Assembly (NCBI GenBank): GCA_964535955.1
Contig: CAZHVK010000009.1
Span: 50,811 to 70,810, forward strand
Direction: 5' to 3'
Source of the DNA: an uncultured Methanosarcinales archaeon
Lineage (GTDB): Archaea; Nanobdellota; Nanobdellia; Woesearchaeales; CAXGTL01
DNA: 20,000 nucleotides
The notes under the pieces were generated by a model, which was not told where the DNA came from, did not search any database, and saw only the letters and a program-made list of their open reading frames with translations. Made by a program: the position numbers and the translations under genes. Position 1 is the first letter of the stretch, and every line of letters starts with the position of its first letter. Positions 6,575 to 8,194 of this stretch are shown one piece after another.

Positions 6575-6727
6575 TGGGTCTGGCCGGACTTTCATCTTTA
6601 CAGATCTTGAACCGGCGACCATCTCGATTTTAAAAACAACTGCGTTGTTTTGAAGTTTCAACACAGTTGAAACAGTCAACGAGATGTCATTTATGGTGTA
6701 ACAACATAGCCACTAGACCACAGACCC
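6575..6727 (-). tRNA. tRNA-Val(GAC) with three insertions (D loop, anticodon loop, T loop)
   Basis: Removing 6691-6707 (17 nt), 6629-6674 (46 nt) and 6589-6605 (17 nt) gives the 73-nt cloverleaf GGGTCTGTGGTCTAGTGGCTATGACATCTCGTTGACATCGAGATGGTCGCCGGTTCAAGTCCGGCCAGACCCA; D- and T-loop introns form bulge-helix-bulge motifs. Confidence 0.88.
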
Positions 6728-7075: not shown

Positions 7076-7094
7076 ATGTATCTCAAAATAACAC

Positions 7095-7205
7095 TGGTGC
7101 AACCCGCCAGTTTGGCCAGTGAGCCAATGTTATTCATCGTAAGAATGAGTTGAGGCTCTATTTGTCCTCATAATAAATTAGAGTCGGTGAACGAGGGTTG
7201 CACCA
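7095..7205 (+). ncRNA. Unassigned structured small RNA, about 111 nt
   Basis: Perfect 11-bp closing stem TGGTGCAACCC/GGGTTGCACCA; internal hairpins GCCA/TGGC, TTATTC/GAATGA and GGCTCTATTTGT/ATAAATTAGAGTC with G-U pairs on the + strand; TATA box upstream. Confidence 0.65.
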
Positions 7206-8023: not shown

Positions 8024-8036
8024 GAAAAATAAAGAG

Positions 8037-8142
8037 AGCCCCTGGCCAGACTTTCACTAATTTCTTAGATTTGAACTGGCGACCTGTCGCTTTCTGTATA
8101 AATTATACTAGGCGACCGCTATAGCCACTAAGCTACAGGGGC
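8037..8142 (-). tRNA. tRNA-Thr with apparent AGU anticodon and two introns (37/38 and 59/60)
   Basis: Removing 8092-8105 (14 nt) and 8051-8069 (19 nt) gives GCCCCTGTAGCTTAGTGGCTATAGCGGTCGCCTAGTAAGCGACAGGTCGCCAGTTCAAATCTGGCCAGGGGCT (73 nt); GCC acceptor start and U73 match archaeal tRNA-Thr; T-loop intron is a perfect BHB. Confidence 0.88.
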
Positions 8143-8194
8143 ATAGACTAAAGGTTGTATGATTTATTTAAAAACATTTCTAAAAATAAAAGAA

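What the first reader, a model, noticed from the sequence alone, without database searches (positions are those of the whole stretch)
8037..8142. Archaeal tRNA-Thr with A34 (AGU anticodon)
Seen: the 21 nt between the anticodon stem strands are CTAGTATAATTTATACAGAAA. Every single-intron register that leaves a 7-nt loop gives A at position 34 (AGU or AGA). Acceptor identity (G1-C2-C3, U73) and the short variable loop favour Thr(AGU). All stems are intact, so it does not look decayed. Established: archaea generally lack A34 tRNAs and the TadA/ADAT wobble deaminase, reading NNU/NNC with G34. In the canonical BHB register base 34 faces a C in the intron, which would pair with G or inosine but not A. 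Inference: either unmodified-A34 wobble, an unknown A-to-I activity possibly tied to splicing, or a recent G-to-A change or consensus error.
Basis: partly seen in the sequence, partly recalled or inferred. Interest (0 to 1): 0.72.

Follow-up and report, generated by a model that had tools for sequence, protein, structure and literature searches.

The report
Conserved A34 threonine tRNA in archaea
A small marine DPANN archaeon and its relatives carry an intact threonine tRNA gene whose anticodon starts with A, a type that archaea are said never to have, and no known enzyme to convert that A to inosine was found in them.

Summary
Window 8142..8037 (minus strand) is a two-intron tRNA-Thr gene with anticodon AGU; A34 is base 8109.

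It is not an error:
- Contigs of 4 runs from 2 studies show no difference at 8109.
- 3 of 3 congeners keep AGU. One has no anticodon-loop intron, and its loop reads CTAGTAA.

The same backbone with AGU occurs in 26 of 401 sampled genomes of the order (15 families). It occurs in 0 of 83 genomes from other orders of the class. In 25 genes examined, every stem pair is kept, with many compensatory changes.

AGU is a paralogue of the normal GGU gene, not always its replacement. The two lie side by side in 3 genomes. No GGU gene is detectable in this genome or in a closed relative.

No TadA was found. Matches over the cut-off occur in 2 of 401 genomes, neither an AGU genome. The only deaminases in these genomes are dCMP or cytidine deaminase-like.

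ACC codons are not depleted.

Best reading: a functional, genome-encoded A34 tRNA-Thr, most likely unmodified, as in Mycoplasma. Inosine made by an unknown enzyme stays open.

This scan earlier noted an A34 alanine tRNA in another DPANN lineage (e1-3201499).

The parts
8037..8142 (-). tRNA-Thr(AGU) gene: three exons, two introns, discriminator U73 at 8037
   Evidence: Sequence. Cloverleaf score 64. Fold z = -3.48. Orthologues.
8106..8142 (-). Exon 1: tRNA positions 1-37 (acceptor 5' strand, D arm, anticodon-stem 5' strand, loop C32 U33 A34 G35 U36 A37)
   Evidence: Parsing.
8107..8109 (-). Anticodon AGU. A34 is base 8109.
   Evidence: No other letter at 8109 in contigs of 4 runs. The intron-free orthologues read CTAGTAA.
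8092..8105 (-). Intron 1, 14 nt, at the canonical 37/38 position. The motif is relaxed: only the 3' bulge is canonical.
   Evidence: One search lists the registers. One search pairs C32-G and U33-A, bulges A34, forms the helix GUAUA/UAUAC, and leaves a 3-nt bulge at the 3' splice site. G003 lacks this intron.
8070..8091 (-). Exon 2: positions 38-59 (A38, anticodon-stem 3' strand, variable loop AGGUC, T-stem 5' strand, UUCAAA)
8051..8069 (-). Intron 2, 19 nt, in the T-loop at 59/60. Full bulge-helix-bulge motif: central helix UUCA/UGAA, inner helix CUAA/UUAG.
   Evidence: Read by hand. The inner hairpin appears in the fold. The variant-strain contig diverges exactly at 8069 (table 7). My finder scored 33 G000 tRNA genes above noise, and 23 of them have extra sequence in the T-loop.
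8037..8050 (-). Exon 3: positions 60-73 (U60, T-stem 3' strand, acceptor 3' strand, U73)
8165..8172 (-). TTTAAATA, centred about 26 nt upstream of position 1: a likely archaeal TATA box
   Evidence: Read by eye. Inference from the known archaeal promoter consensus; not tested.
8025..8033 (-). T-rich tract TTTATTTTT just after the gene: a likely transcription stop
   Evidence: Read by eye; inference only.

Best explanation
This is a working gene for a threonine tRNA with a genome-encoded A at the wobble position 34.

Shown:
- The cloverleaf is intact.
- A34 is conserved in many genomes.
- The stems are under purifying selection.
- The gene is a paralogue of the ordinary tRNA-Thr(GGU) gene.

Inferred steps:
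- The transcript is cut at two introns (37/38 and 59/60) by the archaeal splicing endonuclease.
- It is charged by ThrRS through G1-C72, C2-G71 and U73, plus G35 and U36.
- It reads ACU by a Watson-Crick A:U pair.

Most likely, at about 60:30 against inosine, A34 stays unmodified, as in Mycoplasma capricolum tRNA-Thr(AGU). These genomes have no TadA/ADAT-type deaminase.

The rare ACC codons (3% of Thr codons here) would then be read by weak A:C pairing or by tRNA-Thr(UGU).

Proposed history: a GGU gene duplicated in tandem, one copy changed G34 to A, the two coexisted (G025, G149, G262), and GGU was then lost in some lineages, including this genus and G028.
For: Gene and base:
- Searches show the gene.
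- contigs of 4 runs from 2 studies cover 8109 with no difference. A second strain differs only in the introns.

Conservation:
- AGU is present in 3 of 3 congeners, next to the same GDPD gene in G002 and G003.
- The pattern TAGCGGYCGCCTAGTA, with up to 1 mismatch, gives an AGU arm in 26 of 401 genomes of the order, in 15 families. That count includes the unpublished G335. The reversed-pattern control gives 8 hits by my count.
- In a second sample, 15 of 218 order genomes match and 0 of 83 genomes from other orders of the class.

Selection (25 AGU genes):
- Every acceptor, anticodon and T-stem pair is a standard pair in all 25. In the D stem, pairs 10-25, 11-24 and 12-23 are standard in all 25; position 13-22 is T.T in 23.
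- Both-sided changes occur in acceptor pairs 4-7, in anticodon-stem pairs 2 and 3 (CG 14, TA 11 each) and in T-stem pairs 1-4.
- 15 of 25 have no anticodon-loop intron.

Independent tools:
- ARAGORN calls tRNA-Thr(agt) in 13 intron-free loci and in G028.
- Rfam tRNA scores 63.5-66.2 bits for 3 of 3 tried.

Relation to GGU:
- GGU lies beside AGU in G025, G262 and G149.
- No GGU cloverleaf was found in G000: of 802 YTGGTR sites with a perfect stem, none scored 48 or more.
- None was found in the closed genome G028: of 588 sites, the best scored 50.5, which is noise.
- The finder does detect GGU genes in G010, G014, G019, G024 and G262.

No deaminase:
- The TadA model scores over its cut-off in 2 of 401 genomes, neither with AGU. 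Weak hits occur in 6 of 26 AGU genomes against 142 of 401 overall.
- The single CDA-fold gene of G000 is dCMP-deaminase-like and lies next to a dUTPase-like ORF. It scores 22 bits on TadA against a cut-off of 150.
- The same kinds are found in G028, G025, G333 and G035; G221 has none.
- No ADAR/ADAT1 domain in 5 of 5 genomes.

Codon use in G000: ACU 32%, ACC 3%, ACA 64%, ACG 1%.
Against: - No RNA data exist, so neither expression, nor splicing, nor the chemical state of A34 has been seen.
- ACC is not avoided where AGU is the only purine-34 isoacceptor found. In G028, ACC is 20% of Thr codons. Its C/(C+U) is 0.475, like boxes served by a G34 tRNA (0.29-0.67) and above Ala (0.29) and Pro (0.20), where no G34 tRNA was found. 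That fits efficient reading of C, which inosine would give.
- Archaea already have one unidentified tRNA adenosine deaminase activity, the one that makes m1I57. This is recalled, not tested.
- My tRNA inventory of G000 is incomplete. About 40 genes were found, with no tRNA-Ala at all. The assembly has 31 contigs with N gaps, so a hidden GGU gene cannot be fully excluded there.
- The anticodon-loop intron has a poor bulge-helix-bulge motif.
Confidence: 0.6

Rival explanations
1. A34 is deaminated to inosine by an enzyme unrelated to TadA/ADAT2, or too diverged to be recognised. The tRNA would then work as tRNA-Thr(IGU) and read ACU, ACC and ACA.
For: - ACC is not depleted in genomes where no GGU gene was found. 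Thr C/(C+U) relative to the other four-fold boxes is 1.17 in G028 and 1.06 in G000, against 0.91 and 1.43 in two GGU genomes.
- In G028 the Thr box looks like the boxes that have a G34 tRNA.
- An unknown archaeal tRNA A-deaminase is already implied by m1I57 (recalled).
Against: - The TadA model scores over its cut-off in 0 of 26 AGU genomes.
- CDA-fold genes in five AGU genomes (G000, G028, G025, G333, G035) are dCMP or cytidine deaminase-like. G221, 99% complete, has none at E of 0.01 or better.
- No ADAR-type domain was found.
- AGU coexists with GGU in 3 genomes. The literature describes I34 and G34 isoacceptors as excluding each other (PMC8879553, passages).
Confidence: 0.27
2. The gene is a decaying or non-translational tRNA-like copy of a Thr gene, and a normal GGU gene that I missed does the decoding.
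For: - My inventory of G000 is incomplete.
- G028's copy has an odd T-loop, CGCACAT.
- The anticodon-loop intron motif is poor.
Against: - 25 of 25 copies keep every acceptor, anticodon and T-stem pair and D-stem pairs 10-25, 11-24 and 12-23, with compensatory changes, across 15 families.
- Intron-free copies score 63.5-66.2 bits on Rfam tRNA.
Confidence: 0.04
3. Assembly or consensus error, or a strain-private mutation at 8109.
For: None found.
Against: - Contigs of 4 runs from 2 studies show no difference at 8109, including a second strain.
- 3 of 3 congeners and 22 further genomes of the order carry A34.
Confidence: 0.01
4. The intron is cut in another register, giving anticodon AGA. That would be a serine-type anticodon on a Thr body.
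For: Three registers that keep U33 and R37 give CUAGAAA.
Against: - Orthologues without the intron read CTAGTAA (15 of 25).
- The G002 intron gives AGU in every register.
- The gene has a short variable loop and a Thr-type acceptor with U73.
Confidence: 0.01

Closest known systems
tRNA-Thr(AGU) of Mycoplasma capricolum, with unmodified A34 (Andachi 1987 and Inagaki 1995, as cited in passages of PMC11066159)
   Same: Same anticodon. It occurs in a small genome. As cited, it was sequenced with an unmodified A34 and reads ACU, ACC and ACG in vitro. It works beside a UGU isoacceptor.
   Different: That tRNA is bacterial, and its A34 state was measured. Here the state is only inferred. Here the gene has archaeal enzyme-spliced introns, and in some relatives it coexists with GGU and CGU isoacceptors.
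Thr-tRNA(AGT) and Leu-tRNA(AAG) standing in for GNN in Lactobacillales, Leuconostoc and Mycoplasma (bioRxiv 10.64898/2026.05.15.725136, passages)
   Same: An ANN anticodon in a four-fold box, kept across genera. It replaces the GNN isoacceptor only. Thr-AGT is the commonest such case.
   Different: Most of those bacteria keep TadA for tRNA-Arg. That survey found only 3 ANN among 10,517 archaeal tRNAs in GtRNAdb and did not describe them.
Eukaryotic tRNA-Thr(IGU) made by ADAT2/ADAT3, and bacterial tRNA-Arg(ICG) made by TadA
   Same: A34 is encoded in the gene and sits in a four-fold box.
   Different: No ADAT or TadA homologue was found in the AGU genomes. In those systems the G34 isoacceptor is absent, whereas here GGU and AGU can sit side by side.
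A34 tRNA-Ala(AGC) in an Iainarchaeota-like DPANN archaeon
   Same: An archaeal tRNA gene of a four-fold box with A34, kept in related species, in DPANN.
   Different: It involves another amino acid and another lineage. I did not test that note.
Multi-intron tRNA genes of Thermoproteales and ARMAN-type DPANN archaea, spliced at bulge-helix-bulge motifs
   Same: The introns lie at 37/38 and 59/60. The 59/60 intron has a full bulge-helix-bulge motif.
   Different: This concerns gene structure only and has no bearing on A34.

Membership tests
tRNA (Rfam RF00005 cloverleaf) | Seven-pair acceptor stem, D, anticodon and T arms, U8, U33, T-loop UUCRA | tested here: met
   All are present after removing the two introns. 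The window gene itself fails RF00005 and ARAGORN because of the introns. Intron-free orthologues score 63.5-66.2 bits.
tRNA (Rfam RF00005 cloverleaf) | Stem pairs kept by compensatory change among relatives | tested here: met
   In 25 genes, every acceptor, anticodon and T-stem pair is standard in all 25, and so are D-stem pairs 10-25, 11-24 and 12-23. Both-sided changes occur in 10 pairs.
tRNA-Thr (archaeal ThrRS substrate) | G1-C72, C2-G71, discriminator U73, G35 and U36 (identity set recalled, not from a call) | tested here: met
   G1-C72 and C2-G71 in 25 of 25, U73 in 25 of 25, G35 and U36 in 25 of 25. Charging itself was not tested.
Archaeal enzyme-spliced (bulge-helix-bulge) tRNA intron | Two 3-nt bulges holding the splice sites, separated by a 4-bp helix | tested here: met
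   T-loop intron 8069..8051: central helix UUCA/UGAA, bulges AA|U and AG|U, inner helix CUAA/UUAG (by hand; the hairpin appears).
Archaeal enzyme-spliced (bulge-helix-bulge) tRNA intron | The same motif at the anticodon-loop intron | tested here: inconclusive
   Only C32-G and U33-A of the central helix and the 3' bulge are present. The 5' site lies inside a helix in the computed fold. G002 and G136 have the full motif, with A34 paired to T (by hand).
TadA/ADAT-dependent I34 system | A TadA/ADAT2-type CDA-fold deaminase encoded in the genome | tested here: not met
   NF008113 scores over its cut-off in 0 of 26 AGU genomes and in 2 of 401 overall. G000's only CDA-fold gene scores 22 bits against a cut-off of 150.
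TadA/ADAT-dependent I34 system | Inosine at position 34 of the mature tRNA | not testable with these tools
   No RNA run holds this DNA.
Mycoplasma-type unmodified A34 tRNA | A34 gene in a four-fold box in a genome without a tRNA A34 deaminase | tested here: met
Mycoplasma-type unmodified A34 tRNA | A34 chemically unmodified in the mature tRNA | not testable with these tools
   This needs tRNA sequencing or mass spectrometry.
Mycoplasma-type unmodified A34 tRNA | A34 takes the place of the G34 isoacceptor | tested here: inconclusive
   No GGU was found in G000 or in the closed G028. GGU lies beside AGU in G025, G149 and G262.

The most novel reading that the evidence does not exclude
Archaea of this order convert A34 to inosine with a deaminase that is not of the TadA/ADAT family. 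It could be the still unidentified enzyme behind archaeal m1I57. Wobble inosine would then exist in all three domains and would have arisen more than once.
Probability: 0.2. Interest if true: 0.9.

Novelty: new member of a known kind. Interest (0 to 1): 0.68.

Why it matters
Reviews state that archaea have no ANN anticodons and no A34 deaminase. PMC11066159 says the same.

Here an A34 tRNA-Thr is kept under selection in at least 15 families of one DPANN order. It sometimes sits beside GGU and sometimes appears to stand alone. That gives a natural series of stages: duplication, G34-to-A change, coexistence, loss of GGU. The series can be used to study why A34 is normally forbidden.

It also gives a concrete target, position 34 of one tRNA in marine metatranscriptomes or tRNA-seq, to ask whether archaea can make wobble inosine.

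Standard tRNA finders miss the gene here, so tRNA censuses of such genomes are biased.

Tried and rejected
1. A table of Thr isoacceptors drawn from the acceptor pattern GCCYCNGTRGC seemed to show GGU in 0 of 5 AGU genomes and in 4 of 5 others. It is invalid. ARAGORN later found GGU next to AGU in G025, with acceptor GCTTCAG, which the pattern cannot match. I withdrew the claim of mutual exclusion.

On inspection these are Lys(CUU), Met(CAU) and Lys(CUU) with introns. No further A34 tRNA was seen.

3. Whole-genome tRNA inventory of G000 with two finders of my own: about 40 genes. No tRNA-Ala, Pro(GGG) or Leu(GAG) was found, so the inventory is incomplete. Both pre-filters leak: GC islands missed 2 of 36 known genes, and the ORF mask missed 7 of 40.

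4. A 14-nt exact match to a GGU anticodon arm in G002 lies in coding-like sequence with no tRNA features.

5. RNA evidence: no RNA holder is listed for this DNA.

6. The 3' acceptor regex gave only noise.

7. Codon use does not separate AGU from GGU genomes (3 against 2 genomes, which is too few for a test).

8. Literature searches listed no paper that describes an archaeal tRNA-Thr(AGU). Supplements were not opened.

Full report
**What is there.**
On the minus strand, window 8142..8037 reads GCCCCTG TA GCTT AGTGGCTA TAGC G GTCGC [CTAGTA + 14 nt + A] GCGAC AGGTC GCCAG [TTCAAA + 19 nt + T] CTGGC CAGGGGC T. This is a class I tRNA with two introns, a Thr-type acceptor and discriminator U73.

I wrote an intron-aware cloverleaf search. 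It scores this gene 64 where noise is about 47-50. It confirms that every single-intron register keeping U33 and a purine at 37 gives AGA or AGU.

The pre-tRNA folds at -37.7 kcal/mol, z = -3.48, with 0 of 200 shuffles as good. A34 is base 8109.

By eye there is a TTTAAATA box about 26 nt upstream and a T-run downstream. Both are inference only.

**Not an error.**
Contigs from 4 runs of 2 studies cover 8109 with no difference. A second strain, in 110-nt contigs in two runs, differs only inside the two introns and diverges exactly at the 59/60 splice point.

The host genome is 1.49 Mb, 29.7% G+C, in 31 contigs, and is rated 100% complete.

All 3 other genomes of the genus have the orthologue with AGU:
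- G003 has no anticodon-loop intron; its loop is CTAGTAA.
- G001 and G002 have different 12-nt introns.

In G002 and G003 the gene lies in the same place, after the GDPD gene. One of those public records is titled Candidatus Woesearchaeota, and another uncultured Methanosarcinales. Earlier notes of this scan also call the genome a Woesearchaeon. I did not test the taxonomy further.

**Spread and selection.**
The 16-nt pattern TAGCGGYCGCCTAGTA (D-stem 3' strand, base 26, anticodon-stem 5' strand, loop to position 37) was searched with up to 1 mismatch.
- It matches 27 of 401 sampled genomes of the order.
- 26 of those genomes carry CTAGTA. They fall in 15 families. The count includes the unpublished G335; without it the figure is 25 of 400.
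- 2 matches are CTCGTA, the CGU isoacceptor.
- The reversed pattern gives 8 hits by my count.

A second sample gives 15 of 218 genomes of the order and 0 of 83 from other orders of the class. It adds 4 new carriers. The pattern fixes one backbone, so these are lower bounds.

I fetched and parsed 25 of the 26 genes:
- Every acceptor, anticodon and T-stem pair is a standard pair in all 25. D-stem pairs 10-25, 11-24 and 12-23 are standard in all 25; position 13-22 is T.T in 23.
- Both-sided changes occur in acceptor pairs 4-7, anticodon-stem pairs 2 and 3 (CG 14, TA 11 each) and T-stem pairs 1-4.
- U73 is present in 25 of 25.
- 15 of 25 have a plain 7-nt loop CTAGTAA. 10 have an intron at 37/38. 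4 have the T-loop intron (this genus only).

ARAGORN calls tRNA-Thr(agt) in 13 intron-free loci and in G028. Rfam tRNA gives 63.5-66.2 bits for 3 of 3 tried. These are working tRNA genes, not decayed copies.

**Relation to GGU.**
I first thought AGU simply replaced GGU. That rested on an acceptor-pattern search and is wrong. ARAGORN finds the following:
- In G025, tRNA-Thr(ggt) lies 135 nt after the AGU gene.
- In G262, it lies 12 nt before the AGU gene.
- In G149, the order is Leu(taa)-AGU-GGU.

In G262 the two genes share D arm, T arm and nearly the whole acceptor, and differ in the anticodon arm. They look like tandem paralogues. In G025 the AGU gene is almost identical to the CGU gene.

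Family f26 keeps Leu(taa)-AGU. The three f26 loci where ARAGORN sees Leu(taa) (G028, G152, G318) show no GGU beside it.

Unbiased scans for any YTGGTR loop closed by a perfect 5-bp stem, each site tested with the cloverleaf model, gave no GGU gene in two genomes:
- The closed genome G028 (773,982 bp): 588 sites, best score 50.5, which is noise.
- G000: 802 sites, none scoring 48 or more.

The same model does find GGU genes in G010, G014, G019, G024 and G262 with scores of 60-76. BLAST with the G025 GGU gene finds nothing in G000, G001 or G003.

So G000 has AGU, UGU (contig C9:49454-49571) and CGU (contig C8:68778-68896), and no detectable GGU.

One caveat applies. My inventory of G000 is incomplete: about 40 genes, no tRNA-Ala. 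The assembly also has gaps.

**Deaminases.**
- G000 has one CDA-fold gene. It is dCMP-deaminase/ComEB-like, lies beside a dUTPase-like ORF, and scores 22 bits on the TadA model against a cut-off of 150.
- Over 401 genomes, TadA scores over its cut-off in 2, neither an AGU genome.
- Weak CDA-family hits occur in 142 of 401 genomes, and in 6 of the 26 AGU genomes. Both tallies include unpublished genomes.
- In G028, G025, G333 and G035 the CDA-fold genes are dCMP or cytidine deaminase-like. G221, rated 99% complete, has none.
- No ADAR/ADAT1 domain was found in 5 of 5 genomes.

**Codon use.**
In G000 the Thr codons are ACU 32%, ACC 3%, ACA 64% and ACG 1%. An A34 anticodon therefore pairs perfectly with nearly all pyrimidine-ending Thr codons.

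ACC is not specially avoided. Thr C/(C+U), relative to the other four-fold boxes, is as follows:

| Genome | Thr isoacceptors | Ratio |
|---|---|---|
| G000 | AGU only | 1.06 |
| G028 | AGU only | 1.17 |
| G025 | AGU and GGU | 1.10 |
| G010 | GGU | 0.91 |
| G019 | GGU | 1.43 |

In G028 (42% G+C), ACC is 20% of Thr codons. Something reads ACC well there. It could be A34 through A:C pairing, the UGU tRNAs, or inosine.

**Introns.**
The T-loop intron has a full bulge-helix-bulge motif (by hand; the hairpin is seen).

The anticodon-loop intron does not.

This genome's UGU gene has the same ...ACAGAA intron end. Across the 10 AGU genes that have this intron, the base in that position is C in 2, A in 4, G in 2 and T in 2. 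Only G002 and G136 have a full central helix, and there A34 pairs with T (by hand). The intron therefore says nothing about G or inosine at 34.

**Mechanism and odds.**
Shown: a conserved, selected, genome-encoded A34 tRNA-Thr that is a paralogue of GGU, in genomes without a TadA-type enzyme.

Inferred: splicing, charging, and Watson-Crick reading of ACU.

I put about 60% on an unmodified A34, as measured in Mycoplasma capricolum (cited in PMC11066159), and about 27% on inosine from an unknown enzyme. The rest goes to minor rivals. Coexistence with GGU and the lack of any candidate enzyme favour A. The normal use of ACC where GGU is missing favours I.

**What is known.**
I read passages of four papers:
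- PMC11066159: archaea lack A34 genes.
- PMC8007984: all ANN are missing in Archaea, and no archaeal A34 ADAT is known.
- bioRxiv 10.64898/2026.05.15.725136: 3 ANN among 10,517 archaeal tRNAs in GtRNAdb, and Thr-AGT and Leu-AAG replace GNN in some bacteria.

Four searches listed no paper on an archaeal tRNA-Thr(AGU). I opened no supplements.

This scan noted an A34 tRNA-Ala in another DPANN lineage earlier (e1-3201499; not checked by me). The phenomenon may therefore be wider in DPANN.

Noticed in passing
window 6575-6727 (minus strand): A second hidden tRNA gene, tRNA-Val(GAC). It has extra sequence in the D-loop, the anticodon loop (53 nt between the stem strands) and the T-loop. ARAGORN and Rfam miss it. 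The same gene lies near the AGU gene in G001, G002 and G003.
   Followed up: partly
window 7092-7204; second copy at G000:C16:21792-21946: A GC-rich structured element of about 110 nt (CACTGGTGCAACCCGCCA...GGGTTGCACCA), repeated elsewhere in the genome.
   Followed up: no
25 AGU genes; also the UGU and CGU genes of G028: D-loop AGTAGC (A at position 18) always goes with T-loop TGCA or CGCA (G at position 55), in 9 of 9 genes. D-loops with GG at positions 18-19 (AGTGGCTA, and AGCGGTAC in G182) always go with T-loop TTC, in 16 of 16 genes. This looks like covariation of the tertiary G18-psi55 contact to A18-G55 in Thr tRNAs of this order.
   Followed up: partly
G000 whole genome; G028 whole genome: No tRNA-Ala was found at all in G000, nor Pro(GGG) or Leu(GAG), by any finder. 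In the closed G028 only Ala(UGC) and Pro(UGG) were found. Either these genes are split or built more complexly, or U34 tRNAs read whole boxes here.
   Followed up: partly
G000:C7:65833-65966; G028:760423-760522: tRNA-Ile with anticodon UAU, canonical intron. AUA may be read by UAU rather than by an agmatidine-modified CAU.
   Followed up: no
G000:C13:31642-31488 (minus strand): A tRNA-Arg whose intron has a perfect bulge-helix-bulge motif at 35/36, giving UCG. Assuming the canonical 37/38 position would wrongly give UCA, a UGA-reading anticodon (by hand).
   Followed up: partly
G000:C5:4685-4873: Two adjacent intron-free tRNAs. One is His(GUG) with an AT-rich acceptor, GTAATAG. The genome also has a three-intron His(GUG) gene at C1:148858-149020. 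The intron-free pair may be of foreign, for example viral, origin.
   Followed up: no
G028:511628-511700 (minus strand): The AGU tRNA of the closed genome G028 has T-loop CGCACAT, which lacks T54, T55 and A58. Its family relatives have TGCAAAT or TGCAAGT.
   Followed up: no
L047 (G044:C71:9970-10428), L048 (G009:C46:2734-3195): These are the only two TadA matches over the cut-off in 401 genomes of the order (168 and 156 bits). The G009 copy has two in-frame stops. They may reflect bacterial contamination or gene transfer. Neither genome has the AGU pattern.
   Followed up: no
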